64,000 bases of DNA from Trypanosoma brucei (taxonomy: Eukaryota): contig CM000208.1 in NCBI GenBank assembly GCA_000002445.1, positions 3,488,001 through 3,552,000 of the forward strand, read 5' to 3'. Below, one piece after another: positions 1 through 60,117 of the stretch. Below the pieces are notes generated by a model. It did no database searches and was not told where the DNA came from. It saw only the letters and a program-made list of their open reading frames with translations. Position numbers and translations under genes: made by a program. Positions within the stretch are counted from its first letter, which is position 1, and each line of letters begins with the position of its first letter.

Positions 1-490
1 TTTGTTCTTGTTGTTGTTATTGCTGTTGTCGCTTGTTTTGTTTCTTTTTAATTATTATTATTATTATTTTTTTTTCTTTTTACGTCCTCGTTTTCATTCA
101 TTTTATTAACTTTCTTTGTTTTTATTTTTATTTTTTTCTTTTTAAAATACCGTTTCATTTTAGGAACTTCTCCTCTCTTATTTTATACCATATCATCGTT
201 ATATCACCACCACCATTGCCATCGTATTATTATTATTATTATCATCATCATCATCATCAATATTGTTACCCCCTCCTGTTTGTTCGAGTACAAAAAGCAG
301 AGAGATACAAACCAAACAACAACAACAAGGAAAAATAATAATAATAATAATAAAAAAACAAAAGATGGAAAAAAGGGGGAAAAACAAAAAAACAGAAGAA
401 GAAAAAAACGAACACGTATTTAAAAACTTACAAGTAAAAGAGAAAAAGAGTAAAGAGAAAACGAAAAATAAGAAGCGGGAGAAATGAGAT

Positions 491-557
491 TTATTTGATT
501 CCTCATGTGGACTCCCTTCCCTGGTAGATGCAGGAATCCACATGAGGAATCAAATAA
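491..557. repeat. perfect 21 bp inverted repeat (ttatttgattcctcatgtgga and tccacatgaggaatcaaataa) with a 25 bp spacer, forming a potential hairpin
   Basis: Left arm 491-511 and right arm 537-557 are exact reverse complements. It sits in otherwise homopolymer-rich sequence. Confidence 0.85.
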
Positions 558-1232
558 AACATATAAAAATCAAAACAATACAAAAAAAACAAAAAAAAGG
601 AGGAGGTCGCAGAGGCGAAGCGACGTGCTGAAGAGTGTACTGAAAACAAATGAAAGGAACAAAAAAAAAAGGCAAAAAAAAAGAGAGAGGGGTGTTGAGA
701 CCATTGAATGTTTTTGATTGCCAGCAAAGCGATAAAAACAAAAATAAAAGTAAAAAAAAACTATTCTACCGAAGGAGGGGGGAAGAAGGCTTTTTTTAAA
801 AGGACAAACAAGGGGAATAGGGAAGAAATGAACAAAAAGCAAAAAAAAAAAACACCGCTATCGGAAGTGAGTCATAACACTACGCACGCTATATATATAT
901 ATATATATATGCGCCTCTTTTTATACGGGTGTGCGCGTGCGCTTTCCTTTTTTTTTCTTTCTTTCTCCTCTTCATTCCTAAATATTTATTAGTTCGTGTG
1001 GCATCGAGTGAAATCCGTCGTTGCGTGCGGGGTCGCTAAAAAAAAAAAAACAAAAACAGAAAAGGGTAAAGGGTAAAAACTGTCAACCTCCATTATTCTT
1101 TTTCTTTTCCCTAATTATTTTACCTTCAATTTTATTTTGGCTCCTCTTCTTTTTTTTTAATTTCATTATTTCCTTTTACACCAAACACATTTACACTCCT
1201 TTTTCTTTTTATAAATATACTGCCGTTCTCAC

Positions 1233-1276
<44 letters not shown>

Positions 1277-4200
1277 AATATATATAAATAAATATTTCTT
1301 TCTCTCACTGTACCTCTACCCTTTTAAACATTTCCCAACAACCACTGGGCTCAATAGAAAAAAAAAAAGTGACAACAACGGTATTATCACCGTGAAAAAG
1401 AGAAAGAAAAAGATATGGTAAAAAAAAACATAAATACAAATATAAATAGAAAGAAGGTGGGGAATAATTTAAAAAAAAACTGAAAGAAAAAAAGAAAAAA
1501 ACAAGGGGAAAGAAGTCAAATCCAAAAGACGTTAACGGTGAAATAACACAAATTGGAAGAAAAGATAAAAATGAAGATAAATGGGACTTTTATAATTTAA
1601 TAAAAGAAAAAAAACAACAAAGGAGACATTTTATTTTGCTTCACCGGCTTTCTTTTCTTTTTCCTGCTTTCATGGGAGAAGGAAGGACGAAGGAAAGAGA
1701 AACTTTACAAAAAAAAAAAAGAAACGAAAACGAAAAATTAAAAAAAACAAAAAAAAACAAAAAGCAAAAGGGAATGGAAAAAGTGACACCAGGCGACAAA
1801 GTGGAAAATGAGAAGAAGATAAAAGACAAAAAAACAGAAGGGAGAAGAGGAGGGGAACAAAAAGCAAAAACGTAATATCGCTCGAATAAAAATAAAAATA
1901 GAAACATAATTTTTTTTAAAAAAAAGAAGAGAGTCAACAAAGAGAAAAGTAGAAAAACAAAAAGTTAACAAAAACAAAAAAAATCATAGCGTGGACCCCA
2001 AGGGAAACTATTCTGTACTGTGCTTTTATTCATTTGGTTCACTTTCCTCCCTTGTCAAAGCGTCACCATAACGGTGACAACAAACGGTAGAACGCGATAA
2101 TAATAATAATAATAATAACAGTAATAATAATAATAATTGAACTCATATTTTAGTGCACGCGTGCGTGTGAGTGCAGGTTTAGGTTTGTGTACGCGTGAAC
2201 ACTTATTAATATTATATTTTAAAGGGTTGTTATTATTATCGTTGGTGTTAATATCGTTAGCATTATCATCATTATTATTAGGATCGAAGGAGCAAAACAA
2301 AAATATTTCGAAACATCAACAACAACAAAAAAAAAAAGGGAACTCTGGATAGGACCACGGGAGTTTAAACGGGGAGGATGGAAAAAAAACAAAAATAAAG
2401 AAGAAAAAGAGAGAAAACGGTGGATCTAGTGGAAATGGATGCCAAATAAACAAACAAATATATATATATATTGGTAATGGTATTGATATTGATATTGATA
2501 TATTGATATATTTAATAAAATGGAAAAAGCAAATAACAAGAAAGAGCAAAAGTGAAGACTATCAGACAACAACGACAACAAATGAAAGAATGAAATAAAA
2601 TCAAAAACTATAAAATTTTTAAAAAATTAAAAAAAGGAACTACAGAGACTTATGTGACGAATGAAGGAGCGAAGTGGGCGAACAGGAGCAGCATTAGCTG
2701 GCATACACACATACACATATGTTAATATGTAAATATGTAAATATATAAATTAAATACTAACCTAATATATAAACATATATGTACTTACCGGCACGTAAGC
2801 GTAGACATAGTTCCCTCACGCCCACAGCCCCTACTTCAAACATAAACATATATCCGTAGCACATATAATATTATATTTATATATACAAACATACATATAT
2901 ACGAAATAAGGTCATCCATCACCACTTCCATCAATATCTTTTTTTCTTTTCTTTTCTTATTTCATTGTGCTTTTGAGTTTCTCTCCCCCTCGCTTTTTTT
3001 TTCTTTTTTAACCTTTTGATTTGTTCGTTTGTTTCTCATTCTTTTTTTTTTCCTCCTACTCCCCCCCCCCTCTCCCTTTTTCCCGTAGTAAAGATTATTA
3101 TTATTATTATTTCTTTTTTTTTCCTCTCCCTCTCTCTCTCTCTTCACAGAAAATACAGTAAGGCACACATCTCCCCACTCACAGCACTAAACACAAAAGA
3201 GAGATTTTTCCTTTTTTTTTTGTTTTTTTGTAAAAGGAAAAAAAATGTACATACCAAAAACTAAAACAAAAAGAACAATAATAAAGAAAAAGTGAACGAA
3301 AACGAAAACAATGAGCGACAAGCGTAAACTTAATAAATAAAAAAAATGAAAAAAAATGAAAAATGAAAAAACAGACAAAAACCTCTTCGTGTTATTCCCC
3401 GTCCTCAGACCTCATTCTCATCATCTCACCACACAAATTTTCGCCACTTAAACGCCAGCTGTACTTTCGCCCCCTCCCCCCCCCCCAAAGAAAAAAATAT
3501 AAATATAAATATAAATAAAAATATTAATATTAATATTAACTTCGCGGTGTCACAAACTTCCCTTCTTCCTTTTCTCTCCTTTTCGTATCGAATACCTTCG
3601 CACAAACACACACATATAAATACATATAAAAAAAACGAAAAAAAAAAAATATATATATATATGTATATTTCGTACACGGTGGCATCCCTACTACAAATAT
3701 TTGAGAAGAACAAAACAAGAAAAAAACCTTTGTGTATTCCTCTTTTTTCCTTCTTGGTTATTTTAATTTTTTTAAAAAAAAATTATTTATTTATCGATCT
3801 CTGCATTGTCTTCACCGAATCGCGCACGCTTCATTCTTTTCCTTTGAAATCATTTTAAAAAAAAAACTCGAAATTGTTTCGTATGCGCTTGCGGGCTCTC
3901 ACGCCCCTCCCCCCAAACAGAGAAACCAACTAAAGTTTAAAACAAATGACAATAGTTTCTGTGCATATTTTCCCTCTCCTTAACAAGTACAAGAAAAAAC
4001 AAAAAAAAAAAAAGAAAAGCACACATTCACACACTTTGGTCGCCGCAAATGTGATTTCCATCCCCTTCGTTCTCCTTCCTTTCCCCCTTCTCTCCTTTTC
4101 TATCTTGGAAAAAAAAAATAATAATAAAACAAAATAAAGTAAAATAAAGTAAACAGTTTAATTATCTTCCCCCTTTTCACCCCACACACCCACACCGCAC

Positions 4201-5510
4201 GCACGCACGAACGTAAATTTTTATGCGTTGAGACTCTTCCTTTTCTTTCTTTATTTCTTTACTAATTTATTCATCTCTTGAGTGTTTTGTCATAGTTTTA
4301 TCATTATTTTTTTTTTTTTGCGTCTCCTTCCTTGATGCCGCTCAGCCGCTACACATGCCTTTTCTCGCCTTCCCTTCGTTTCTCTTCGGTGTTTTCTTTT
4401 TGCTTTCCTCCTTCTTCTTTTTCCCCCCTTTTTTCTCTCTTTTCTTTTTCTTGTTTTAGTTTTAATTTTAGTTTTAGTTCTATTTTTATTATTGTTGTTG
4501 CTTTCCCCTTGTTTTGCTCCTCCATTTCCTTCATTCCTTCCCTTGTTTTAATGTTGCGGTTTTTTGTTCTGTTCTCTCCTTCAATGCTTCTTCCTTCTCC
4601 GAAATCGTGTTCGGTACGGGTTCAGATGAGAAGTCACACACACACACAAAAAAAAAAAAAAGAGATTCGGCCTCCTCCCGCTCCCCCTTTAGGTTCCAAA
4701 AAAAAAAAAAAAGAGGCGTAACAGCACTCACAGCACTGTTTCTCCATGTTTCTTTTCCTTCTTCTTCTTTCTTCCTCTTCTTTTGTTCGTTTAACATCAA
4801 TGATATGTTTCGGTGAAAAGATAAAACGAACTGTAGAAGAAAATGGGAGAAGGAGGAAGACCGATGCAGTGGCACACCATCTGCCAAAAGCGCATCTTTC
4901 TTCTGCTCTTCTTTTCTTTTTATTTCTATTCCTTCTCCTTCCTTTCCCATTTTAGTCACTTCCCCTTCACCTTCCCATAACGCCACACGCCACATGCCGT
5001 CCAAAGACAGTTTGGTGACGGTAGAAAAGGTTTTTTTTTCCCCATCCCACCACTTTAAATACCCCTCAAACATAAATAAATAAATTTATATTTATATATA
5101 TATATATATACTTTTTTTTTCGTTTCTCTGTGCGCGAGCGGCTCCACGGCTGACGGTCAAGAATTTCTGAAACTCTGCTCCCTTCCCCTCCCTTCCCTTC
5201 CTCCTTCAGTAACAACACAAAAAGACGCTCCCTCGTCCTCCTCTAAGCGGAAGAGGAGTTCTGGGGTGAAACGAACTTCGAAACAAGAAAAAAAAAAAGG
5301 TCTCGCAACACTCCCCACCTCCTAACCAATAAACACACACTTACAATCATTCCGCTACCAACCAACTCACTATCCTATACCTACGTGTTGAACTGCACGG
5401 AGCACAATTTATCTTTCCAGTCACGCAAAGACAAAAAGGAAGCGTCAAACCTCAGCGTCACTTTCTTCCACAAAGTGTAGTTCTGCAGCCGTTAACACTT
5501 TCACACACAC

Positions 5511-5830
5511 TTACATGGTGGGGCCTCCTCCTCCTCCTCCAAACATCCCGCGCATATTTCCTCCCGATGCTCCAAATCCCCCGCTGCCGAAACCGCCACC
5601 ACCGCCACCACCACCGCCGCCGCGACCACCGCCCATTCCAAAACCACCGCTGTTGCCGCCACGCCCGAAAACGTTGCTCATTCCAAAACCACCGCTGTTG
5701 CCACCCCGACCGCCGCGATAACCACCGCCACCACCGCCGCCACCGCGACCACCGCCCATTCCAAAACCACCGCTGTTGCCACCACGCCCGAAACCGCGAT
5801 AACCGCCGCCACCACCTCCGCGGTTATTGT
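5511..5830 (-). repeat. in-frame tandem DNA repeats encoding the Gly/Arg-rich tail of the helicase
   Basis: The block ccattccaaaaccaccgctgttgccaccacgcccgaaa... recurs at about 5630 and about 5750. At protein level the repeat is GGNSGGFGMGGGRGGGGGGGG. Confidence 0.8.
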
Positions 5831-7367
5831 TGTTGTTATTATTGTTGGGGCGCTTGGCCAGTGCACGAACTTCAGGAGAAATGACCTGATTGGTCTCATT
5901 GAGAAGTGGAATGAGATCATCCACAATGTTGCGGTTCTTCTCGTTAAAAAATGAAATGGCGACGCCCACTTTGCCAGCACGGCCTGTGCGGCCGATGCGA
6001 TGCACGTAATCGTCAATATTGCTCGGCATGTCATATTGGATCACAACCCCGACATTGGGGATGTCGAGTCCGCGAGAAGCTACGTCTGTTGCGACAAGAA
6101 CTTGACAAGCGCCTGACTTAAACAGCCTGAGAGCCTCTTCGCGCTCACGCTGCACACGATCGCCGTGGATAGAAACGCACGCCAACTCGCTATTGCGCAG
6201 GAAACGCTCCAAATAATCGGCATCACGCTTCTTTTCGACAAAAACGAGAACAAGCTTGCCTTCATTTTCACGAAGTAACGTGAGTAGCGCCTGACGCTTG
6301 TCCGGGTCCTCAATCCAGCGAACGTCCTGAGTGATATTCTCCGTTGTGGAGCCCACGCGTCCAACCTGAAGGAACGAGTGGCGGCACATAAACTCCCTGG
6401 CGAGCCGCTGAATCTCAACGGGAAAAGTGGCAGAATAGAGCAGAGTTTGGCGCTGACCTGCCCTTGGCATATCACTGTCTGGACCTTGAACAATCATCCG
6501 AATTTGCGGTTCAAATCCCATATCCAGCATTCGATCAGCTTCATCCAATATCAGGAAGCGGATTTCAGAGAAGCGGACGTATCCACGAGAGAACATATCC
6601 ATAAGTCGTCCAGGGGTCGCAACAAGCAATTTACACCCGCGGGAGAGCTCATGTACCTGGTGGCGTGGATCAGCACCGCCATAGACGACTACACAGCGGA
6701 CAGGCGTATGGTAGGTGAACTTGCGGGCTTCTCCATAGATCTGAAGGGAAAGCTCCCTCGTTGGTGCAAGGATAAGGGCTTGGGGGCTGGAGTGGCTGCC
6801 CGGGCTGTACGGAGGGCGGTTCGAAATATTCAACAGTATCTCGTTGATAGCAGGAATAAGGTACGAAGCTGTTTTCCCCGAACCAGTTTGTGCACACGCC
6901 ATAAGATCCCGATGATTGAGCGCTGTTGGAATACCCAAGCTCTGCACAGGCGTTGGCTTGGTGTACCCACAGCGTTTCACATTTTCCAGCAGCACCGGAA
7001 CCATGTTCATTTCACTGAACGATAACACTGGCGCAATGTCGTTTGGCGTGATAGTCATATTCACCTCTCCGTGTTGGTCAAAGTTGATGCCCGGAGTGTG
7101 ATCCTTAAATATGTCCTCATCGGCTGGCTCCTCACGGTGGTAGCCATGGCCGGAGGTTTCCCCTTGGTACGGCACGTTGCGACGGATAAATTCGCCACGA
7201 CCACGGGAGGGGCCATCAAAACCTTCGCGCGGCCTTTGCTGATAACCACCATAGTTGTTGTACCCAACCTGGTGGCCGGCTTCGCCAAATGCTGGGGCGC
7301 GTGCCCACGGGTTGGCGTTGGGGTTGAACTGCTGATGGCCGCCCTGGCCGAAATTCATGCCGTGCAT
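5511..7367 (-). CDS. ATP-dependent DEAD-box RNA helicase of the DDX3/Ded1 family (HEL67-like) with a C-terminal Gly/Arg-rich RGG/GYRGG repeat tail
   Basis: Translation contains AQTGSGKT (motif I), PTRELSLQI, DEAD, SAT and HRIGRTGR motifs. The C-terminal roughly 100 aa are GGRGG/GYRGG repeats. The ORF track starts at a non-ATG codon. The first in-frame ATG (MHGMNFGQGG...) is at 7367, read as cat at 7365-7367. Confidence 0.85.
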   Translation of the reverse strand: MHGMNFGQGGHQQFNPNANPWARAPAFGEAGHQVGYNNYGGYQQRPREGFDGPSRGRGEFIRRNVPYQGETSGHGYHREEPADEDIFKDHTPGINFDQHGEVNMTITPNDIAPVLSFSEMNMVPVLLENVKRCGYTKPTPVQSLGIPTALNHRDLMACAQTGSGKTASYLIPAINEILLNISNRPPYSPGSHSSPQALILAPTRELSLQIYGEARKFTYHTPVRCVVVYGGADPRHQVHELSRGCKLLVATPGRLMDMFSRGYVRFSEIRFLILDEADRMLDMGFEPQIRMIVQGPDSDMPRAGQRQTLLYSATFPVEIQRLAREFMCRHSFLQVGRVGSTTENITQDVRWIEDPDKRQALLTLLRENEGKLVLVFVEKKRDADYLERFLRNSELACVSIHGDRVQREREEALRLFKSGACQVLVATDVASRGLDIPNVGVVIQYDMPSNIDDYVHRIGRTGRAGKVGVAISFFNEKNRNIVDDLIPLLNETNQVISPEVRALAKRPNNNNNNNNRGGGGGGYRGFGRGGNSGGFGMGGGRGGGGGGGGYRGGRGGNSGGFGMSNVFGRGGNSGGFGMGGGRGGGGGGGGGGFGSGGFGASGGNMRGMFGGGGGGPTM

Positions 7368-8811
7368 TTTCAAATATCTTTTTTTTTTTGTGAGGGGCAA
7401 GATGGGTGCACAAGGTGGTGAAAGACGTGTCAAAGATTTAAAGCAAACAAGTAACGCTCGTGTAAAGAAGGACAGAGGACAAACAGTTAGCATAAACACG
7501 AAAACGGAGCAAAAAAGCAGCGGACCAAAGCATGGATACGCATGTGAGCAGTACGCAAAACAAAACAAAAAGGAATAAAAAATAGATCACGTTAAAAAAG
7601 CATTGAGGTGATCACACGAATGGCTTGGGCTCACCTCAAACAATACTCACATCACTCACGAACACATAATTCGATGTTGGTGTGCCTCATCCAACGTTCC
7701 CTTGAGTGTTTTTGCACACAATATTCAGTGGAAGGGAAAAGTAACAAGATGTAGCAGCAAAGGGGGAAAACAATGGAATACAACAAAACAAAGTAAGCAA
7801 TATAACAAGCTTCAACGGCCCAACATTACACAAAACATGTTTTGCAACCACGTCACTGCACAAAAGCCTCAATCTTTTTTTCCCCACCACCACCAGCATA
7901 AATAAGGGGTCTCATATAATATGCCTGAGATAACCTCTTTTCCTCACAGCAACAGCCCAGTAATTGCATCACCCCACCCCCACCCGTTAAAAATAAAAAA
8001 ATAAAAAGGACAAGGGCAACACCATCGCGTTTGTTTTTGGAACAAATTATGCACGTCCGCGCGCGGATGTACGCACGGAAACTAACAATGAAACTAAACC
8101 TTATGTCTCTCAGCCTCCCGTGAGAATATACGCTGCGTACACTTACACAGAAATTCGGTGAGGCCACGGCAGTGCAAGTAGTCCGCTTTGTAATGGGGCA
8201 CAACATCAGTGACAACTCTTTGGCACGAATTGCAGTGTTGCCTGAGGAAAGAAATCGAGAAAAAAAAGTGTTTACACTTTGATCCTTCCGTCAATATCGT
8301 AAGGTTGCAGCATAAACCCTCCATGCTGTTCATATCTCAGTGCAAGCGCAGATGCAACAGCCGCCGTTCACTATTCCACGGATGGCATAATCATCGGCGG
8401 CATTAAGTTCCTGTCTGTCCTTACCTACAAATAATGATCTCAACAATAAACAAATAGCAAATACACGAAGGAAAAACAAAACGCAGGAGAAGGACACATG
8501 TGAAATGTTACAAGTGAGGCCGACGAAACCTCCGAAACCACAGGTTACACCACTTCTGCGCGGCGAATCCAAACATGCAGAACAACCTACACATTACATA
8601 TCCCTCATTCTTTTCTAGTTCCCACAAGAATCCTTCCCACAACGCACGTAAACGAACTCCACCACAGGTGGTAAACACGTGGCAGTATAACGGACGCTGA
8701 GGAAGTAAAAAAAAAAAAATGTACATATATTGGTCTGTATAGATATGTTTGCGTACGCATAAATTAATACAAGGAAGCGTCTTACACCGGGGTCGATTCA
8801 CTGCCTCCGCC

Positions 8812-11186: not shown

Positions 11187-13343
11187 CTACTCTACATCCA
11201 AGCCCCATCCCTCGGCAACATTCGTCCCAACTGATTCCTCCCCGTCTCTGCTGCTGTTTCCAGCGTCCAAATCATCGCCGCCGCCACTAGTGCTATCAAC
11301 GTTCTTGGAGAGAGCCCCAAGGGGTGCAGAAACAAGAGGCGTCCGCCACTCTACATTCATTTCTGGGTACTCTTGAGCACGGCGATCACGTAATTTCAAT
11401 TGCTCTAGTTCAAGTACCTCATCACAGCGAAGAAGACCCAATCGCGGAATGAAACGGCTGTTTTCATTCGTAGTTTTATCAGGCATATCCAGCATCGTAC
11501 CACATTTGCAGATACCCTTCGACCACTCTCCAACAAAATACTGCTGCTTCTGCGTATAGCACCACAAGCCCGGACCTTCGCGAAGACCAAGGGCCCAGTA
11601 ACCGTCATACCAGTCCCCGCTTGTTAAACGTAAGATCCCCCTACCGTAGTGCTGATCATCACGGAACTCACCCTTGTAGATATCTCCATTAGCGAAGAAC
11701 AACCTCCCAAACCCATCCCGCTTACCCCCGGACCACCCACCCTCGTAAACATCGCCATTCTCCTCCCACGATATTCCTACACCATCGCGCTTTCCTGCGA
11801 GCCATTCCCCACGATAGACACGTACCCACGGTGACTTCACATCTTTTCGCAACCAGAGTGTTCCCTCGCCTTCACGTAATCCGTTGCGGAACTCACCCCG
11901 GTATTTGCTAAGTTTTTTTAGTAGTTCACCGAAGCCGCCAAACTTCCCGTCCTCCCACTGACCTTCGTATGATTCGGTCTTACGAGGCGTAAGAAAGATC
12001 CGTTTACGCATTCCGTGTGTGTCCACTTTTCCATGGAGGCGTTGGGCTCGAGTCTTGCAACGCTCAATGATGGCCGCCTCGGGATCCACCGCTGGGGATT
12101 TCACGGCCCCACGCCGTGGGTCAAACCCGTGTAATTTCCGATATATTTGCAATAATTTCTCCTCTGCCTCATTCAGGGGACAGCCATTAGCATCCGAGCC
12201 ATACAACTCCGCCACAGCTTCAGCACCGAGTAGCTCCTCTTGCCGGCGCAGCTCTTTCAGCAATAGGCCGCGTTCAGACACAACGACTATCGCCTTCAGG
12301 GCACAGCGCAACCGGCGGAAGTACTGCAAGTTTTCAAGCGTGTCAATTGACTCCTTAAACTGCAATGGATTTGTGCATCCAACAACAAAGGAGGCCTCAA
12401 GTCCAGAGATGAACTGGGACATTAATCGTGAAAACTTACACTCCATGAAAAATGACTGACTACTGCAGATGAGGTCATGGTGACCCTCTGGGGTTGTCGC
12501 CCGCGACCTACGCTTCTCACGGTAATTAATAGAATGAATGACTGCTGCTCGAAGAAGAGTTACACTTACGTTGATACCACAACCCTCCTTCAGCTGATCA
12601 CCTGCAACGCCCTTCAAACCGAGGCAGTCTGTCCCTTTGAGATGTACAAATGTCATTGAGCGTATTACAGTCTTTCCCGAATCCACTTTGGGAGTTGTGG
12701 AAACCATAAGCTGCAGGAAACCATGCCAACGACTCTGCCGTTGCTTGGTGCGACGGACACGATTCCTGTTTCCACGTTCAAGTTGTTCGAGAAAATCCTC
12801 AAATGTTGGCACCCTAACTGCCATCAGATTTGGTATGACGAGACGGTCGAAAGTGTCACGGGTAACCGTATACGCTCTCTCTGATCCATCTTCGTCCAGC
12901 AAGTTGTCCTCCACGGAGTCGCGGTTCATCTCCCAATAACGCAGCACAATATCCGTCTCAAATTCCCCCGCAACAGCCCCGAGTCGTTGATAAAGTCCCC
13001 CCACCGTGTCATAAATAAGACCAACAGATTCGTTGTCCCCGAATAAGGTGTGAGTCTTACCTGTAACAGCAAACCCCATGACAACCACGTTGGAGCTGAG
13101 ACCTTGAGCAACCAGATCAATCATCTCCAAGCCTATCGCATGGTATAGCTCCTCCTGCTTTGCAGAGCAGGGGAAGAAATAGTCACAGTCGTACATCAAA
13201 CCTTCTGTGGCATCGGGAGAGTAGGCAAAAAGTTTTCCCTCGCTCTGCCTGACGTGTAATTTCACGCCAAGTATATCCTCTTCCGCAATGGGCCGCTCCC
13301 GCACAGCGATACGGACCCGGTCGAACGAACTGGAATTCTCCAT
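11187..13343 (-). CDS. kinesin-like protein with a degenerate motor (P-loop GFAVTGKTHTLFG) and C-terminal MORN repeats
   Basis: The N-terminus RVRIAVRERPI matches the kinesin motor start. A P-loop-like VVVMGFAVTGKTHTLFG replaces the canonical GQTGSGKT. The C-terminus carries about six YEGxWxxGKxxGxG MORN-type repeats. The ORF-track start at 13490 is GTG. The first ATG (MENSSS) is at 13343. Confidence 0.6.
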   Translation of the reverse strand: MENSSSFDRVRIAVRERPIAEEDILGVKLHVRQSEGKLFAYSPDATEGLMYDCDYFFPCSAKQEELYHAIGLEMIDLVAQGLSSNVVVMGFAVTGKTHTLFGDNESVGLIYDTVGGLYQRLGAVAGEFETDIVLRYWEMNRDSVEDNLLDEDGSERAYTVTRDTFDRLVIPNLMAVRVPTFEDFLEQLERGNRNRVRRTKQRQSRWHGFLQLMVSTTPKVDSGKTVIRSMTFVHLKGTDCLGLKGVAGDQLKEGCGINVSVTLLRAAVIHSINYREKRRSRATTPEGHHDLICSSQSFFMECKFSRLMSQFISGLEASFVVGCTNPLQFKESIDTLENLQYFRRLRCALKAIVVVSERGLLLKELRRQEELLGAEAVAELYGSDANGCPLNEAEEKLLQIYRKLHGFDPRRGAVKSPAVDPEAAIIERCKTRAQRLHGKVDTHGMRKRIFLTPRKTESYEGQWEDGKFGGFGELLKKLSKYRGEFRNGLREGEGTLWLRKDVKSPWVRVYRGEWLAGKRDGVGISWEENGDVYEGGWSGGKRDGFGRLFFANGDIYKGEFRDDQHYGRGILRLTSGDWYDGYWALGLREGPGLWCYTQKQQYFVGEWSKGICKCGTMLDMPDKTTNENSRFIPRLGLLRCDEVLELEQLKLRDRRAQEYPEMNVEWRTPLVSAPLGALSKNVDSTSGGGDDLDAGNSSRDGEESVGTNVAEGWGLDVE

Positions 13344-13674
13344 ATAGTAACGACCCAATGTGCCTCCTTCCAAATTTGATATAACTAAAATGAGCTTGAT
13401 GCCCACGCAGACAGCGAGAAAGGTAGTTAACAATTTTAAAAGAAAAAGACGGAGAAGAAGAGAGAAATTACCTGTTGAAAAACGTTTCACTCTTTTTCGG
13501 TAGTGTGCGGAAGCTCATGTCGCCTCTTTGTCTTCACAAGAGCCTGTGAAACAAAAGGGCCTCATTGAAGGAAAAAAAAACCGAATTCCTCTGTGCATTA
13601 GCAAAAACAAGCAATAATAACAGAAGAGAAATTAATTCAAAGAAAAATAATTGAAACCACCGTTGACCGCCGAT

Positions 13675-14175
13675 TTACTTCTTCGGCTTGCTCTTGGGGA
13701 CGGGCACACGCTCCTGGGGCTGCGTCATAAAAAGTTGCACGTGGCACGGACTGCGCATGTACGGTGTGATACGACCATGTGCACGGAACGTACGGCGACG
13801 CACGCGAGGGGCCTGATCCACCTGAACGTGTTTAATGACCATTTTGCCGGGGTCAAGCCCCTTCTCGATGGCGTTCGCCTCGGCGTTCTTCAACAGCGAC
13901 AGCATTGCCACAACGGACTTGCGCGGCCAGCGTCCCTTCGTCTGCCCCCATTCCTTCGCTTGTGCTGTGTTACCAATCTTTCCATTGTAGCGCTTGAAGG
14001 GAATGCAGCGGGTTTTGGCCAGGACTTGACGGTACAGCTGCTGCGCTTTGCGGAGCTTCATACCGTTGATCACATTAGCCGTCTCGAAGGTATTCTTGTA
14101 GTGGCACCGGAGGTCGGCGATCTTCGCCTTGGCCGTCTTCGAGGAAACCTGTGGCTTGCGGGAGTAATGCACCAT
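13675..14175 (-). CDS. RPL17: 60S ribosomal protein L17 (uL22)
   Basis: 166 aa. MVHYSRKP...KNTFETA...RYNGKIGNTAQAKEWGQTKGRWPRKS...RRRTFRAHGRITPYMRSPCHV is colinear with eukaryotic RPL17. ATG at 14173-14175. Confidence 0.9.
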   Translation of the reverse strand: MVHYSRKPQVSSKTAKAKIADLRCHYKNTFETANVINGMKLRKAQQLYRQVLAKTRCIPFKRYNGKIGNTAQAKEWGQTKGRWPRKSVVAMLSLLKNAEANAIEKGLDPGKMVIKHVQVDQAPRVRRRTFRAHGRITPYMRSPCHVQLFMTQPQERVPVPKSKPKK

Positions 14176-14512: not shown

Positions 14513-15448
14513 TTACTTTCCCGCCTTACAACCTGCAATAATAGATTTCACGCGCGGAATGACTCTCGCGGCGATCGGTTGCAACCGTGGAACAAGACGT
14601 GGGGCCAGCACCACGGTGACAGCCACCTCCAAAGGCACAAGAAGCTTGTTCAGTAGAATTGAAAGAGCCAAAGCAGTCCAAAATGAGGGATATTTCTTCT
14701 CTCCCTTCCCGTTGCCGCTATCCACATCTGTAGATGGTGCCTCGGAAGTACCGTCCTCTTTTCCAACTTTGAACCCGTACGACCGAGCGTAAGCAACAAC
14801 GTCGATGTGAAGAAAGTACAAGGTAAAGAAAATAATAGCCAATAAAATGTTGTGAACGATGAGGTAAAGGAGCAAACCACCCGCGCCGTAAGCGGCCAGT
14901 TTATGTTTTAAACCAGAAACCCCGTGCGGCGACGGCCCCGATGGCGGAGGAGGATTAACGTCCGGTGGAAAACCGCTACACGAGGACGAGGATGAACCGA
15001 AGCCATCCGTATTCCCTACTATTCCGTTGGTCTTCACACCTAGGGAACCACTGTTTCTAAAAACACGATTCGCTTCGTCAACGAAAAGTTTTTGGCGTCG
15101 GTGATACGTTGGGAAGCGGGTCGTGAACCCCTCAGGGACTTCGAACGTTGTTACATTGGTTACAAGATGATGGTAGTACGGCTTACGGTACTGCAATGAA
15201 AAATATTCACGCCAAACTACACACGGATCGTCATAATGGGGAATCTCATTGCTTGTTATTGTAGCAGCAAACATCGGGCAAGGACGAGCCACACACATCG
15301 CGGCTCTAACCGCCGGTAGGACAACGCCTCTTCCAACAGCATGCTGATCCTTCACACCGTTCGACGGCGGGGCTACGCCGCTTGCCGCGTCATGTGCAAG
15401 ATATCGGCATAAACCTACGTTTAACCTCACACAAGCTATCCGCCGCAT
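14513..15448 (-). CDS. hypothetical protein with a WW-like motif (W...YYHHLVTNVTTFEVP) and C-terminal transmembrane helices
   Basis: ORF of about 311 aa. The first ATG is at 15448, while the track start at 15451 is TTG. The protein has a WW-domain-like W-x(n)-YYHH-x-T-x-T-x(3)-P signature, a poly-Ser/Pro linker and two hydrophobic segments (LLLYLIVHNILLAIIFFTLYFL). Confidence 0.45.
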   Translation of the reverse strand: MRRIACVRLNVGLCRYLAHDAASGVAPPSNGVKDQHAVGRGVVLPAVRAAMCVARPCPMFAATITSNEIPHYDDPCVVWREYFSLQYRKPYYHHLVTNVTTFEVPEGFTTRFPTYHRRQKLFVDEANRVFRNSGSLGVKTNGIVGNTDGFGSSSSSCSGFPPDVNPPPPSGPSPHGVSGLKHKLAAYGAGGLLLYLIVHNILLAIIFFTLYFLHIDVVAYARSYGFKVGKEDGTSEAPSTDVDSGNGKGEKKYPSFWTALALSILLNKLLVPLEVAVTVVLAPRLVPRLQPIAARVIPRVKSIIAGCKAGK

Positions 15449-15685
15449 CAAGTCCTTCTACGCAGTAATATGGAAGAAGATCTTCAAAAAAAAAATTATG
15501 AAGGGAAAGAGTCACTACAGTAGTCACAAAACGGGTAAACGAAACGAACGAAACAGACATGGAAGCACAGACAAGATGCTTTCCAATCGAAGACCTCCTT
15601 AGCAGAGGGGAGCACGTTGTCAAAAAAAAAGAAAATAACAAAAACAGTTGCCGTCCATCGGGCTTTTGCAGTGAGCACCAATGCT

Positions 15686-16486
15686 TTAAGCAGCCACCAT
15701 CTTCCTTCCCATAGAGAGGAACTCGGAGTGCTCGTCGGTGGGGTCGCGCGACACCTCCGTCTCCGCCCAGAGGTCGGGGGTAAGGAAGCCGTATGTCTTG
15801 CGCAGTGCATAGAATGTGGCCATGATGAAATTACCACGCGTACGCGTCTTACCACATGAGCTAGTATATACGTCCTCAACGCCGGCAAACTCAAGAATCT
15901 TCTTCGGCACAGGCGCAGCAACGATACCAGCACCACGTGGAGCAGGGATCAAGCGAACGGCAACGGAGCCGCACTTCCCGGTTACCTTGATAGGGATTGT
16001 ATGCGGTTCACCGATCTTGTTACCCCAGTAGCCACGGCGCACAGGCACAATACTCAGCTTCGCAGCGATCATTGACGCACGGATGGCCAGGGACACCTCC
16101 TTGCCGACGCGGGCGCCGACACCAATGTGGCCGTTACCGTCACCAACAACATTGAAGGCCTTGAAGCGTGTGCGCTGTCCGGCAGACGTTGCCTTCTGCA
16201 CGGGGAAAACAAGCATCATCTCATCACGGAGGTCGCCTTCGCGGATCAGTTGGTCCACGATCTGATGCTCTTTGATGGGCATCGAGAAGAGGAAGATTTC
16301 CTCCAGCGAGGTGATCTTTTGATCCTTCACAAGGCGGCCAAGTTTTGTGCATGGCACCCATTCCTTCTCATCACCACCACCGCCACGACCGCCACGACCA
16401 CCGCGACCGCCGCGACCGCCACGTCCGCCACGGCCACGACCGAAGCCGCGCTGCTCGCCACCTGTACCGCGTGGTGCGTCAGCCAT
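15686..16486 (-). CDS. RPS2: 40S ribosomal protein S2 (uS5), copy 1, with an N-terminal RGG box
   Basis: 266 aa. GRGGRGG N-terminal repeats, then [14 protein letters not shown]...[29 protein letters not shown]...[16 protein letters not shown], which is diagnostic of S2/uS5. ATG at 16484-16486. Confidence 0.92.
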
Positions 16487-52894: not shown

Positions 52895-53818
52895 CTAATT
52901 CGATCTGCGCCACTCCACATAAATGGGTTTCAGCGCATCCACGCCGGAAAGTACACCAGCGCCAGCGATACCGCGTAGGATGTTTGCACCAGCGCCTCGC
53001 ATCAGGGACGCAGCTCCCTCCTGTTTAATCACCTGCAACATACAATCCATCGAGTTCTTGTACTTCACAGCAGCACCTGATGTCATCATCATGCGCCGGC
53101 GAACGGTGTCCAACGGGTAAGAAAGAAGCCCCGCCACAATAGTCACAGCCCATCCAAGGAAGAAGTTTACGATGAATGTGTCCACAGGAAGCATTGGCTG
53201 AAGGGTGTCGTAAAGACCAAAGTAGAAACCACGGTACACAACAATACCAATACAGGATACCACAAAGCCACGATACAACCCAGCGATGCCATCACTCTTC
53301 CATGTCTTGACATAGCAGTCCACAATACCGTTAAATTGGCGCTCCCCACCACCCTTCACAGACTTCGTGTCGTTAGCGAGACGGGTACGGACGTAGTCCA
53401 AGGAATACACAAAACAAAGAGATGCAGCACCAGCGAGACCACCAGATGCCATGTTACCCATAAACCACTTGCCATAGCCATCCTTCTCCTTTTTGTAATT
53501 GAACATCCTCTTAAATTTATCCTTAAAGGCGAAATTCAGCGCCTGAGTTGGAAAGTAACGCAGAACATTTGACAGGTTACCTCGCCAAAGCGGATACACG
53601 CCCTCCGTGCTGATGGTGCGCCGAAAGCAGTCAACGACACCGTTGTATGGCTTGTCCAGTCGGCCTTGCTTCATCATCTCTCCCTGGTTCTGTACGAGCA
53701 GTTTTACTCTTTCGATTGGAGCAGCCGCCGTCTTGGATAAACCGGCAGCGACACCACCAATCATAAACTCCTCAAGGAACCCAAGTTTGGGGGCCGGTTC
53801 CCGCTTTTTATCCGTCAT
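52895..53818 (-). CDS. mitochondrial ADP/ATP carrier (AAC, SLC25 family), tandem copy 1
   Basis: 307 aa with three mitochondrial-carrier repeats. The RRRMMM AAC signature (DTVRRRMMM), with [26 protein letters not shown] and GNMASGG. ATG at 53816-53818. Confidence 0.92.
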
Positions 53819-54274
53819 CCTGATAATGCAAAAAGGTGTGCGATACTTCCTGAGAGAAAAATATATATAGCAGTAAGGAATTATAATTCTTTTTTTTTTA
53901 CAAACTTTAAGAAATGCAAGGGATGGTTGGGAACATTGCCTAATCGAAAGTGCGTGCTAAATATAACGATCGAAAATTGCTCCGTCATAAAAAAGTAATT
54001 AAAACAAAAATAACAAATTTACCGAATGCCCCACGATGGTAACAGCCACACTGTACACCACGCGCTGTGCCCCGTTATTTCCCAGTGAGTTTCTACAGAT
54101 TGCGCTCGTTGCCGCTCATGATAATCGTGACCTTCTTGGCCTTTGCCCTATTTTTTTTCTCTTAAAACAAACATATATCTCATCAAAGGCAGGTTCCCCC
54201 GCGCGCACTGCGTCCGTGATCCCGCACCCTACTGAAAACAGAAGATGACGGTACAACGTACCTCAATGAAATCA

Positions 54275-55198
54275 CTAATTCGATCTGCGCCACTCCACAT
54301 AAATGGGTTTCAGCGCATCCACGCCGGAAAGTACACCAGCGCCAGCGATACCGCGTAGGATGTTTGCACCAGCGCCTCGCATCAGGGACGCAGCTCCCTC
54401 CTGTTTAATCACCTGCAACATACAATCCATCGAGTTCTTGTACTTCACAGCAGCACCTGATGTCATCATCATGCGCCGGCGAACGGTGTCCAACGGGTAA
54501 GAAAGAAGCCCCGCCACAATAGTCACAGCCCATCCAAGGAAGAAGTTTACGATGAATGTGTCCACAGGAAGCATTGGCTGAAGGGTGTCGTAAAGACCAA
54601 AGTAGAAACCACGGTACACAACAATACCAATACAGGATACCACAAAGCCACGATACAACCCAGCGATGCCATCACTCTTCCATGTCTTGACATAGCAGTC
54701 CACAATACCGTTAAATTGGCGCTCCCCACCACCCTTCACAGACTTCGTGTCGTTAGCGAGACGGGTACGGACGTAGTCCAAGGAATACACAAAACAAAGA
54801 GATGCAGCACCAGCGAGACCACCAGATGCCATGTTACCCATAAACCACTTGCCATAGCCATCCTTCTCCTTTTTGTAATTGAACATCCTCTTAAATTTAT
54901 CCTTAAAGGCGAAATTCAGCGCCTGAGTTGGAAAGTAACGCAGAACATTTGACAGGTTACCTCGCCAAAGCGGATACACGCCCTCCGTGCTGATGGTGCG
55001 CCGAAAGCAGTCAACGACACCGTTGTATGGCTTGTCCAGTCGGCCTTGCTTCATCATCTCTCCCTGGTTCTGTACGAGCAGTTTTACTCTTTCGATTGGA
55101 GCAGCCGCCGTCTTGGATAAACCGGCAGCGACACCACCAATCATAAACTCCTCAAGGAACCCAAGTTTGGGGGCCGGTTCCCGCTTTTTATCCGTCAT
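54275..55198 (-). CDS. mitochondrial ADP/ATP carrier, tandem copy 2 (identical)
   Basis: Identical 307 aa translation. Spaced exactly 1380 bp from copy 1. Confidence 0.92.
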
Positions 55199-55654
55199 CC
55201 TGATAATGCAAAAAGGTGTGCGATACTTCCTGAGAGAAAAATATATATAGCAGTAAGGAATTATAATTCTTTTTTTTTTACAAACTTTAAGAAATGCAAG
55301 GGATGGTTGGGAACATTGCCTAATCGAAAGTGCGTGCTAAATATAACGATCGAAAATTGCTCCGTCATAAAAAAGTAATTAAAACAAAAATAACAAATTT
55401 ACCGAATGCCCCACGATGGTAACAGCCACACTGTACACCACGCGCTGTGCCCCGTTATTTCCCAGTGAGTTTCTACAGATTGCGCTCGTTGCCGCTCATG
55501 ATAATCGTGACCTTCTTGGCCTTTGCCCTATTTTTTTTCTCTTAAAACAAACATATATCTCATCAAAGGCAGGTTCCCCCGCGCGCACTGCGTCCGTGAT
55601 CCCGCACCCTACTGAAAACAGAAGATGACGGTACAACGTACCTCAATGAAATCA

Positions 55655-56578
55655 CTAATTCGATCTGCGCCACTCCACATAAATGGGTTTCAGCGCATCC
55701 ACGCCGGAAAGTACACCAGCGCCAGCGATACCGCGTAGGATGTTTGCACCAGCGCCTCGCATCAGGGACGCAGCTCCCTCCTGTTTAATCACCTGCAACA
55801 TACAATCCATCGAGTTCTTGTACTTCACAGCAGCACCTGATGTCATCATCATGCGCCGGCGAACGGTGTCCAACGGGTAAGAAAGAAGCCCCGCCACAAT
55901 AGTCACAGCCCATCCAAGGAAGAAGTTTACGATGAATGTGTCCACAGGAAGCATTGGCTGAAGGGTGTCGTAAAGACCAAAGTAGAAACCACGGTACACA
56001 ACAATACCAATACAGGATACCACAAAGCCACGATACAACCCAGCGATGCCATCACTCTTCCATGTCTTGACATAGCAGTCCACAATACCGTTAAATTGGC
56101 GCTCCCCACCACCCTTCACAGACTTCGTGTCGTTAGCGAGACGGGTACGGACGTAGTCCAAGGAATACACAAAACAAAGAGATGCAGCACCAGCGAGACC
56201 ACCAGATGCCATGTTACCCATAAACCACTTGCCATAGCCATCCTTCTCCTTTTTGTAATTGAACATCCTCTTAAATTTATCCTTAAAGGCGAAATTCAGC
56301 GCCTGAGTTGGAAAGTAACGCAGAACATTTGACAGGTTACCTCGCCAAAGCGGATACACGCCCTCCGTGCTGATGGTGCGCCGAAAGCAGTCAACGACAC
56401 CGTTGTATGGCTTGTCCAGTCGGCCTTGCTTCATCATCTCTCCCTGGTTCTGTACGAGCAGTTTTACTCTTTCGATTGGAGCAGCCGCCGTCTTGGATAA
56501 ACCGGCAGCGACACCACCAATCATAAACTCCTCAAGGAACCCAAGTTTGGGGGCCGGTTCCCGCTTTTTATCCGTCAT
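55655..56578 (-). CDS. mitochondrial ADP/ATP carrier, tandem copy 3 (identical)
   Basis: Identical 307 aa translation. Spaced exactly 1380 bp from copy 2. Confidence 0.92.
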
Positions 56579-59500: not shown

Positions 59501-60117
59501 AGAGTGTCCATGGCCCTAACGCATAGCTTTTCATGCGACCATCCAGCCTTCCGTACCATAACTGATACCCTTCAGACACTCCAACGGCGATCGAGCACAA
59601 AACTATCCTTGTTCATGCTCCGACACGCATCCGCTGGCAATAACAACCAAATATCTTATTGATAAAACCAGAATTTCCATGAAAAAAGAGATAATCCATA
59701 GAGGAAAGTTGGTTCACCCACTGGCATCGCACTTTCAGATTTTGGTAGGTTGACGCAGTATTACTTCAAACAATCACCAATTCCCTGGACGATACATGCG
59801 TCATTACATTTTATTTTCGAAGTTCCCACATTGGTATAAAGCCACAGTTTTCATTGACCCACCGAACCGAGAAAGAAAATCATTTCGGTACCGCCTTAAC
59901 GATGAACGTTTTTCTCTTTTTTTTTTTTAGCAATGCCCGAAGAAACCTCACTCTTCTATACAGCATTGTTAGCTCCATAGCGGTCGATGAGACTGTGAAC
60001 GCAACGTTTCCCGTAAAGATATCGGCACACGTCCATTTAAAATAATATCAAGTCAGCAGCTGCTGCTGACACTTAAACTCCCGATTCCTTACAAAAAAAG
60101 AGAGGGAAAAGAGAAGT

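What the first reader, a model, noticed from the sequence alone, without database searches (positions are those of the whole stretch)
11187..13343. Kinesin-like motor with a degenerate P-loop fused to MORN repeats
The N-terminus aligns to the kinesin motor start (RVRIAVRERPI). The Walker A is GFAVTGKTHTLFG instead of GQTGSGKT, and the switch motifs look eroded. The C-terminal third is a run of MORN repeats (YEGGWSGGKRDGFG and similar). A probably catalytically compromised kinesin carrying a membrane- or cytoskeleton-binding MORN array is a plausible scaffold, for example at the flagellar pocket or bilobe, rather than a motor.
Basis: partly seen in the sequence, partly recalled or inferred. Interest (0 to 1): 0.55.

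Follow-up and report, generated by a model that had tools for sequence, protein, structure and literature searches.

The report
Dead kinesin fused to radial-spoke MORN3

Summary
The minus-strand ORF 11187..13343 encodes a 718-aa protein with an N-terminal kinesin domain (Pfam 100 bits) and seven C-terminal MORN repeats.

It is not new. It is identical, 718 of 718 residues, to chain 4y of PDB 9E5C, the T. brucei 96-nm axonemal repeat. It is orthologous to "Kinesin-MORN" in PDB 9Y6S (Leishmania tarentolae). The gene is Tb927.10.14570.

Published data place it on the axoneme as a radial-spoke-2 (RS2) component with 96-nm periodicity. Deleting it in L. mexicana roughly halves swimming speed.

The C-terminal module is a complete MORN3/FAP207 orthologue, the RS2-base protein of mammals and Chlamydomonas.

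"Degenerate P-loop" is only half right. The general Walker A pattern GxxxxGKT is kept in all 21 homologues. Switch I (SSRSH→xxRWH), switch II (DLAGSE→HLKGTD) and L12 are replaced by different motifs that are themselves conserved. The domain looks retooled and frozen, not drifting.

The fusion also occurs in euglenids and Heterolobosea.

"Flagellar pocket or bilobe" is wrong.

Loss of ATPase activity and the role of the head are inferred, not shown.

The parts
11187..13343 (-). Complete coding sequence of kinesin-MORN (Tb927.10.14570), 718 aa plus the stop codon
   Evidence: ORF listing and translation. Identical 718/718 to PDB 9e5c_4y. The gene ID comes from PMC5540225 and from Table S1 of bioRxiv 10.1101/2025.11.06.687033.
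12309..13325 (-). Kinesin-like (pseudo-motor) domain, residues about 7-345
   Evidence: Pfam PF00225 at 100 bits. phmmer matches to CENP-E, kinesin-8 and KIF13B motors at E about 1e-17. Foldseek TM 0.8-0.87 to motor domains.
13290..13304 (-). N4 base-binding motif VRERP (RxRP), retained
   Evidence: R-x-(R/K)-P is kept in 19 of the 20 homologues that cover this region (T. cruzi has A for P; the fragment P0047 lacks the region).
13053..13076 (-). P-loop GFAVTGKT (residues 90-97). The Walker A pattern GxxxxGKT is intact; the kinesin signature GQT is replaced by GFA.
   Evidence: Alignment to CENP-E GQTASGKT. G90, G95, K96 and T97 are invariant in 21/21 homologues.
12720..12740 (-). Switch I position, RQSRWHG (residues 202-208), where kinesins have SSRSH. 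Of the two serines one is Gln and one is kept here but not across the family; the third serine of the motif is replaced by an invariant Trp.
   Evidence: R-W-H-G is invariant across the family. The second Ser position is S, A or F.
12627..12644 (-). Switch II position, HLKGTD (residues 234-239), where kinesins have DLAGSE. The Walker B Asp is replaced by His (Gln in some homologues).
   Evidence: K236 and G237 are invariant. No sequence in alignment A1 has Asp at this position.
11979..12308 (-). Helical linker between the two domains, residues 346-455. It is the least conserved structured part.
   Evidence: AlphaFold helices 357-432 with low-confidence breaks. Identity to Leishmania is 28% here against 49% in the two domains.
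11406..11978 (-). MORN3/FAP207-like module, residues 456-646: seven MORN beta-hairpins (458-619) plus the conserved C-terminal FIPRLGLL...VLE segment
   Evidence: Pfam MORN at 57 bits. MORN3 chains 9fqr_MS (E=2.5e-34) and 8j07_c1 (5.4e-33), and FAP207 chain 7jts_m (2.3e-31), aligned nearly end to end. Seven hairpins in the model. TM 0.85 to 8j07_c1.
11187..11405 (-). Poorly conserved, predicted-disordered acidic C-terminal tail ending in a conserved GL(D/E)VE in trypanosomatids, residues 647-718 plus the stop
   Evidence: pLDDT below 50 for residues 675-716. Alignment A1.

Best explanation
The ORF is Tb927.10.14570, "kinesin-MORN", of a Trypanosoma brucei-group genome (chromosome 10 by its gene number).

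Its C-terminal 190 residues are the orthologue of the radial-spoke base protein MORN3/FAP207. This module builds the protein into radial spoke 2 once per 96-nm axonemal repeat.

Its N-terminal 345 residues are a kinesin-fold domain. It keeps the nucleotide-pocket scaffold: Walker A GxxxxGKT, the RxRP base-binding motif and the switch II glycine. It has lost the residues kinesins use to hydrolyse ATP: one of the two switch I serines (the other is not kept across the family), the switch II / Walker B aspartate, and the L12 arginine used to grip tubulin.

The head is therefore most likely not a stepping motor. It most likely serves as a fixed adaptor or brace at the RS2 base. It contacts either the A-tubule surface or neighbouring RS2 and inner-arm components, and stabilises or positions RS2 so that signals from the central pair reach the dyneins.

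Shown: identity, domain architecture, motif state, axonemal location, RS2 assignment, and the motility defect on deletion. The last three come from published work.

Inferred: lack of ATPase activity, and what the head touches.
For: Identity and fold:
- 718/718 identical to PDB 9e5c_4y; E=8e-177 to 9y6s_8a "Kinesin-MORN".
- Foldseek of an independent AlphaFold model finds the same two chains first, then kinesin motors, then human MORN3.

Location and function, from the literature:
- The eYFP fusion localises to the 9+2 axoneme (PMC5540225).
- Table S1 of bioRxiv 10.1101/2025.11.06.687033 lists the protein under RS2 with 96-nm periodicity.
- In Table S3, LmxM.31.0420 deletion gives a mean speed of 4.44 and directionality of 0.17. 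Deletions scored as normal give about 8-9 and about 0.30. Flagellar length is normal.
- MORN3 is an RS2 component in mammals. FAP207 sits at the RS1 and RS2 bases in Chlamydomonas.

Motif state:
- SSRSH→QSRWH, DLAGSE→HLKGTD and PYRDSKLT→FFMECKFS, with GxxxxGKT and RxRP kept.
- These states hold in all 21 homologues, from Trypanosoma to euglenids, and in two heteroloboseans.
- 14 of 36 motif residues are invariant, against 15 of 309 elsewhere in the domain (Fisher p=3.7e-8). This indicates purifying selection on a non-catalytic pocket.
Against: - No ATPase or microtubule-gliding assay of this protein was found in the searchable literature, so "catalytically dead" rests on motif logic alone.
- The text of the primary structural paper could not be read (Xia et al., Science 2025, eadr3314). 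I therefore could not check what the head contacts in 9E5C, or whether a nucleotide is modelled.
- The strictly conserved Walker A and RxRP motifs leave nucleotide binding open.
- The RS2 assignment in Leishmania came from maps whose radial spokes the authors call more poorly resolved.
Confidence: 0.88

Rival explanations
1. The head is a nucleotide-binding, non-hydrolysing pseudo-kinesin. Bound ATP or ADP acts as a structural cofactor or as a sensor, so that RS2 geometry or dynein regulation responds to flagellar nucleotide levels. This refines the best explanation rather than excluding it.
For: - GxxxxGKT is invariant in 21/21 homologues and RxRP is kept in 19 of the 20 that cover it.
- The pocket motifs are the most conserved part of the domain (p=3.7e-8).
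- The replacements are specific conserved residues, not random ones: the Trp in RWH and the Lys in LKG.
Against: - There are no binding data.
- The Mg-coordinating switch I Ser and switch II Asp are absent, which could weaken Mg-nucleotide binding.
- Conservation could equally reflect a protein-protein interface that re-uses these loops.
Confidence: 0.25
2. It is an active, if unusual, motor that moves along axonemal microtubules and uses the MORN array to carry cargo or bind membrane.
For: It scores as a kinesin, keeps Walker A and the switch II glycine, and is flagellar.
Against: - Neither switch I serine is kept across the family, and the switch II / Walker B Asp and the L12 Arg are replaced in every homologue.
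- The protein is resolved at a fixed 96-nm position in averaged cryo-EM maps of two species. A travelling motor would not be.
Confidence: 0.04
3. One reading: a MORN1-like scaffold at the flagellar pocket, bilobe or hook complex, attached to membrane or cytoskeleton.
For: MORN repeats resemble those of TbMORN1 (6t4r, E=2e-25). Other orphan trypanosome kinesins do sit at the flagellar pocket collar, for example TbKINX1B (PMC8906236).
Against: - The tagged protein decorates the axoneme along its length.
- Cryo-EM places it on the doublet at RS2.
- The MORN part matches MORN3/FAP207 better and over its full length.
Confidence: 0.02

Closest known systems
T. brucei Tb927.10.14570 "kinesin-MORN" (PDB 9E5C chain 4y, deposited as "MORN repeat-containing protein 3") and L. 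tarentolae LtaP32.0450 "Kinesin-MORN" (PDB 9Y6S chain 8a)
   Same: It is the same protein: 100% identity to 9e5c_4y. The Leishmania orthologue is 43-45% identical with the same architecture and the same motif states.
   Different: Nothing; this is the gene itself.
MORN3 (mammals) / FAP207 = CFAP207 (Chlamydomonas, Tetrahymena), the radial-spoke base protein
   Same: - Residues 438-646 align with almost the entire roughly 240-aa protein (E=2.5e-34 and 2.3e-31; TM 0.85).
- Both are RS2 components.
   Different: - MORN3/FAP207 are stand-alone MORN proteins. This one carries a 345-residue kinesin-like head and a 110-residue helical linker at its N-terminus.
- FAP207 is also modelled at RS1 and docks inner-arm dynein c at RS2. 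T. brucei lacks dynein c, and Leishmania dynein c is not on RS2.
Canonical kinesin motor domains (kinesin-1, CENP-E/kinesin-7, kinesin-8, kinesin-3)
   Same: The fold, the Walker A GxxxxGKT, the RxRP motif, the switch II Gly and the alpha4 IN(K/V)S asparagine.
   Different: - Only about 17-22% identity.
- GQT→GFA.
- SSRSH→QSRWH.
- DLAGSE→HLKGTD.
- PYRDSKLT→FFMECKFS.
- No best match to any one kinesin family.
Kinesin-like proteins built into axonemes as fixed parts: KIF9/KLP1-type kinesins on the central apparatus. The family assignment is from my own knowledge. The tool result shows only that chains 9ijj_c and 9ijj_d of the mouse sperm central apparatus are kinesin-fold matches.
   Same: A kinesin-fold domain is used as a periodic structural component of the axoneme.
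   Different: They sit on the central pair, not at the radial-spoke base; they have no MORN fusion; and, as far as I recall, KIF9 keeps canonical catalytic motifs. Not tested here.
TbMORN1 (bilobe / hook complex; PDB 6T4R and related entries)
   Same: It shares MORN repeats (E=2e-25 over about 100 residues).
   Different: - MORN1 consists of MORN repeats only and sits at the hook complex near the flagellar pocket.
- This protein is axonemal and is orthologous to MORN3, not MORN1.

Membership tests
Kinesin superfamily (motor-domain fold) | Significant match to the kinesin motor-domain profile | tested here: met
   PF00225, E=1.6e-28, 100.1 bits against a cut-off of 29.3, residues 46-342.
Kinesin superfamily (motor-domain fold) | Three-dimensional fold of a kinesin head | tested here: met
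   The AlphaFold model (pLDDT 80.7) superposes on CENP-E, KIF5C, KIF14 and KIF1A heads with target TM 0.8-0.87.
Catalytically competent kinesin motor | P-loop GQTxxGK(T/S) | tested here: inconclusive
   The sequence is GFAVTGKT. The general Walker A pattern is kept and invariant in the family, but the kinesin-specific Gln-Thr is lost.
Catalytically competent kinesin motor | Switch I NxxSSRSH | tested here: not met
   The sequence is KQRQSRWH. Only the Arg and His are kept across the family. The second Ser is S, A or F in the homologues, and the third Ser of the motif is an invariant Trp.
Catalytically competent kinesin motor | Switch II DxxGxE (Walker B Asp) | tested here: not met
   The sequence is HLKGTD. 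Asp is replaced by His or Gln in all 21 sequences of A1, and by His or Asn in the two heteroloboseans.
Catalytically competent kinesin motor | L12/alpha5 microtubule-binding motif (V/I)PYRDSKLT | tested here: not met
   The sequence is FFMECKFS. The Arg is absent in all homologues; only the Lys is broadly kept.
Catalytically competent kinesin motor | Microtubule-stimulated ATPase or motility | not testable with these tools
   This needs biochemistry. No assay was found in the searchable literature.
MORN3 / FAP207 (CFAP207) radial-spoke base protein | MORN-repeat beta-hairpin array, similar to MORN3 over its full length | tested here: met
   - Pfam MORN at 57 bits.
- E=2.5e-34 to MORN3 chain 9fqr_MS over residues 19-228 of 241, 5.4e-33 to human MORN3 (8j07_c1), and 2.3e-31 to FAP207.
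- Seven hairpins in the model.
- TM 0.85 to human MORN3.
MORN3 / FAP207 (CFAP207) radial-spoke base protein | Located at the base or stalk of radial spoke 2 with 96-nm periodicity | not testable with these tools
   Taken from the literature: Table S1 of bioRxiv 10.1101/2025.11.06.687033 and the presence of the chain in 9E5C and 9Y6S. Coordinates could not be inspected here.
MORN3 / FAP207 (CFAP207) radial-spoke base protein | Stand-alone protein of about 240 aa | tested here: not met
   The protein is 718 aa, with an N-terminal kinesin-like head and a linker. It is a fused variant of the family, conserved in Euglenozoa and Heterolobosea.
TbMORN1-type bilobe / hook-complex scaffold | Localises to the hook complex or flagellar pocket neck; built of MORN repeats only | tested here: not met
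   The architecture differs. The match to MORN1 is weaker and partial. The published localisation is axonemal.

The most novel reading that the evidence does not exclude
The head is not merely dead. It is an ancient nucleotide-binding pseudo-kinesin, at least as old as the common ancestor of Euglenozoa and Heterolobosea. It would be locked in one conformational state and act either as a rigor-like foot clamping RS2 to the A-tubule or as an ATP/ADP-sensing element at the RS2 base. In either role it may take over the site that docks inner-arm dynein c through FAP207 in other eukaryotes.

That would make it a motor domain converted into a periodic structural or regulatory part of the axoneme.
Probability: 0.25. 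Interest if true: 0.5.

Novelty: already known. Interest (0 to 1): 0.2.

Why it matters
For the genome scan, this finding is a correct reading of a gene that is already named, localised, solved by cryo-EM in two species and deleted in Leishmania. It needs no discovery claim.

Three smaller points remain, and I could not find them stated in the literature I could search:
- The catalytic motifs are replaced by alternative motifs that are strictly conserved, while the Walker A lysine and threonine are kept.
- The kinesin-MORN3 fusion predates trypanosomatids. It occurs in euglenids and in Percolomonas and Pharyngomonas.
- The fusion occurs in lineages where inner-arm dynein c is missing (T. brucei) or is not docked on RS2 (Leishmania). 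In algae, FAP207 performs that docking.

Together these make kinesin-MORN a tractable example of a motor domain turned into a fixed axonemal part. Trypanosome motility is needed for transmission and infection, so RS2-base proteins specific to this lineage are of some applied interest.

Tried and rejected
- Primary structural paper. I tried to read Xia et al., Science 2025 (eadr3314) by DOI, PMC id and PubMed id. It is not held. What the kinesin-like head contacts in 9E5C therefore remains unchecked.
- Companion paper. The Leishmania/Crithidia 48-nm doublet paper (PMC7617938) does not mention MORN, kinesin or radial spokes.
- Cryo-ET paper. Imhof et al. 2019 (PMC6974359) says nothing useful about the RS2 base.
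- Literature searches. Searches for 9E5C, Tb927.10.14570, LmxM.31.0420, and MORN3 with kinesin and trypanosome terms returned one methods paper at most. A final search returned only unrelated kinesin papers.
- Longer ORF. The GTG-initiated ORF (to 13490, 767 aa) is rejected as mechanical. Its extra 49 residues are hydrophobic low-complexity sequence that is absent from all orthologues and from the PDB chain.
- Plus-strand ORFs. Those overlapping the gene (12019-12459 and 12637-12939) are treated as chance ORFs opposite a conserved coding region.
- Genomic context. It gives no functional clue. The neighbours are unrelated housekeeping genes in one minus-strand polycistron: a TPR protein, ribosomal L17 and S2 (S5-domain) genes, and a DEAD-box helicase. 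This is expected for trypanosomatids.
- Unnamed fusion homologues. I tried to place the metagenomic homologues taxonomically. One (P0053) lies on a compact eukaryotic contig of unknown origin, and I did not pursue it.
Full report
**1. What is in the sequence**

The coordinates given (11187-13343) are exactly an ATG-to-stop ORF on the minus strand. It encodes 718 residues beginning MENSSSFDRVRIAVRERPI. The ORF lister extends it to a GTG at 13490. That extra 49-residue stretch is hydrophobic low-complexity sequence, and it is absent from every orthologue and from the deposited protein chain.

Pfam assigns a kinesin motor domain (PF00225, E=1.6e-28, 100.1 bits against a cut-off of 29.3, residues 46-342). 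It also assigns MORN repeats (PF02493, E=1e-15, 57 bits against 22.5).

**2. Identity**

- A sequence search of the Protein Data Bank returns an identical chain, 718 of 718 residues: 9e5c_4y, deposited as "MORN repeat-containing protein 3".
- It also returns a clear orthologue, 9y6s_8a "Kinesin-MORN" (E=8e-177).
- Foldseek with an independent AlphaFold model (mean pLDDT 80.7) names these entries. 9E5C is the cryo-EM structure of the 96-nm repeat of the T. brucei flagellar doublet microtubule. 9Y6S is the same repeat from Leishmania tarentolae.
- In 9E5C, 661 residues are modelled, so most of the chain, necessarily including parts of both domains, was resolved in situ.
- The gene is Tb927.10.14570 (PMC5540225; Table S1 of bioRxiv 10.1101/2025.11.06.687033).
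- The identical protein is recorded for Trypanosoma equiperdum and on a 4.05-Mb contig. The window is therefore from chromosome 10 of a T. brucei-group genome.
- All 23 ORFs of at least 250 aa in the window lie on the minus strand. The neighbours are unrelated housekeeping genes. This is the usual trypanosomatid polycistron, so context carries no functional information.

**3. What is already known about it (literature, not tested here)**

- A C-terminal eYFP fusion labels the 9+2 axoneme and has been used as an axonemal marker for super-resolution imaging (PMC5540225).
- The Leishmania 96-nm study lists Kinesin-MORN under RS2, next to CFAP206, RSP8 and RSP15, with 96-nm periodicity (Table S1).
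- In its deletion screen, ΔLmxM.31.0420 swims at 4.7, 4.4 and 4.2 (mean 4.44) with directionality 0.17. It is scored "Slow", with normal flagellar length.
- Deletions scored as normal give about 8-9 and about 0.30. Paralysed mutants give about 2-4.
- Kinesin-MORN is therefore a structural RS2 component needed for normal swimming.

**4. The C-terminal module**

Residues 438-646 align with nearly the whole of MORN3 chain 9fqr_MS (E=2.5e-34, chain residues 19-228 of 241). They also align with human MORN3 (8j07_c1, E=5.4e-33) and with Chlamydomonas FAP207 (E=2.3e-31). The alignment includes the non-repeat C-terminal segment (FIPRLGLL...VLE).

The model shows seven beta-hairpin MORN repeats between residues 458 and 619. 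It superposes on human MORN3 with TM 0.85.

MORN3 is modelled at RS2 in mouse cilia and is treated as an RS2 rather than an RS1 component. FAP207 sits at the RS1 and RS2 bases in Chlamydomonas, where it docks inner-arm dynein c through p28 (PMC12399478).

The match to bilobe MORN1 is weaker and covers only about 100 residues. So the MORN part is a radial-spoke module, not a generic membrane-binding array.

**5. The N-terminal module**

Residue-by-residue alignment to CENP-E and a Plasmodium kinesin-8, plus a 21-sequence family alignment, gives the following.

| Element | Canonical kinesin | This protein | State across the family |
|---|---|---|---|
| N4 | RxRP | VRERP | kept in 19 of 20 |
| P-loop | GQTxxGKT | GFAVTGKT | kinesin-specific Gln-Thr lost; general Walker A pattern GxxxxGKT kept, with G90, G95, K96 and T97 invariant |
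| Switch I | SSRSH | QSRWH | second Ser is S, A or F; R-W-H-G invariant |
| Switch II | DLAGSE | HLKGTD | Walker B Asp is His or Gln in every sequence; K236 and G237 invariant |
| L12/alpha5 | PYRDSKLT | FFMECKFS | tubulin-gripping Arg lost everywhere |

By the established roles of these residues in kinesins, hydrolysis is very unlikely. The switch I Ser and switch II Asp hold the Mg2+ and the attacking water. This rests on my knowledge of the family.

The changes are not drift. Within the head, 14 of the 36 residues in the three pocket motifs are invariant, against 15 of 309 elsewhere (Fisher p=3.7e-8). "Eroded" is the wrong word; the pocket has been retooled and then frozen.

The fold itself is intact, with TM 0.8-0.87 to canonical heads.

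**6. Distribution**

- The word-indexed search found 47 relatives. Nearly all are full-length fusions, from Trypanosoma, Leishmania and other trypanosomatids, and from the euglenid Eutreptiella.
- An exhaustive profile search of 1.84 billion representatives put the fusions first. It added more distant ones.
- Two of these could be named: Percolomonas cosmopolitus and Pharyngomonas kirbyi, both Heterolobosea.
- They share the architecture and the motif states: GPSKTGKT, RGTRWHSF and FVNLKGSD in Percolomonas.
- The fusion is therefore at least as old as the common ancestor of Euglenozoa and Heterolobosea.
- Several unnamed metagenomic fusions could not be placed.

**7. How it most likely works**

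- Shown, or taken from structures: the MORN3-like module is part of RS2, and the protein repeats every 96 nm.
- Inferred: the head is a non-motile adaptor that braces or positions the RS2 base. It could bind the A-tubule or neighbouring proteins. I could not inspect coordinates or read the primary paper, so the contact partner is open.
- A suggestive coincidence: FAP207 docks dynein c on RS2 in algae, T. brucei has no dynein c, and in Leishmania dynein c is not RS2-associated. The head may occupy or replace that docking site. This is speculation.
- The invariant Walker A and RxRP motifs leave room for nucleotide binding without turnover.

**8.

"Scaffold rather than motor" fits the evidence. 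"Flagellar pocket or bilobe" is contradicted by localisation and structure. "Degenerate P-loop, eroded switches" needs the correction given in section 5.

**9. Novelty and score**

The gene, its name, its location, its structure and a deletion phenotype are all published or deposited, so this is already known. The residual interest is modest. It lies in the conserved, retooled pocket, the age of the fusion, and the untested role of the head. Interest 0.2.

Noticed in passing
window 1-4500: An AT-rich stretch (GC 0.30-0.32, against about 0.49 elsewhere) with no ORF of 250 aa or more and many short AT/A-rich simple repeats. It lies downstream of the last gene of the minus-strand polycistron, a DEAD-box helicase at 5511-7568. 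It may be a transcription-unit boundary or strand-switch region.
   Followed up: partly
window 52895-56578: Three same-length ORFs (307 aa each) at 1380-bp spacing on the minus strand. The first scores as a mitochondrial carrier (Mito_carr, E=5.9e-68). This is a tandem gene array; from memory it is probably the ADP/ATP carrier array of chromosome 10.
   Followed up: partly
window 56001-60000: GC content dips to 0.41-0.43 just upstream of the carrier array. I did not examine it.
   Followed up: no
window 13675-14175 and 15686-16486: Ribosomal protein genes lie immediately upstream of kinesin-MORN in the same transcription direction: an L22p/L17e family gene, and a gene with the S5 N- and C-terminal domains, i.e. 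S2 in the eukaryotic naming. Between them is a WW/FAM210-domain ORF at 14513-15451. This illustrates that neighbours are functionally unrelated.
   Followed up: yes
window 13344-13490: The in-frame upstream GTG extension of the ORF encodes 49 hydrophobic, Leu-rich residues. They are not present in any orthologue or in the PDB chain, so this is an artefact of mechanical ORF calling.
   Followed up: yes
related proteins P0049 (Percolomonas cosmopolitus) and P0056 (Pharyngomonas kirbyi): Kinesin-MORN3 fusions with the same altered switch motifs exist in Heterolobosea. Their L12 region (FGDSKL/V) is closer to canonical DSKLT than the trypanosome one. This suggests stepwise divergence from an ancestral kinesin.
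   Followed up: partly
related protein P0055 (unnamed assembly, 651 aa): A GC-rich, distant fusion homologue has Asp at the switch II position (CDLKG) but has lost the RWH motif (LASHAF). It may be a differently degenerated lineage. Its origin is unknown.
   Followed up: no
fold search hits 9ijj_c and 9ijj_d: Kinesin-fold chains in the in-situ mouse sperm central apparatus appear among the structural matches. This is a reminder that kinesin-like proteins serve as fixed axonemal parts elsewhere too.
   Followed up: no
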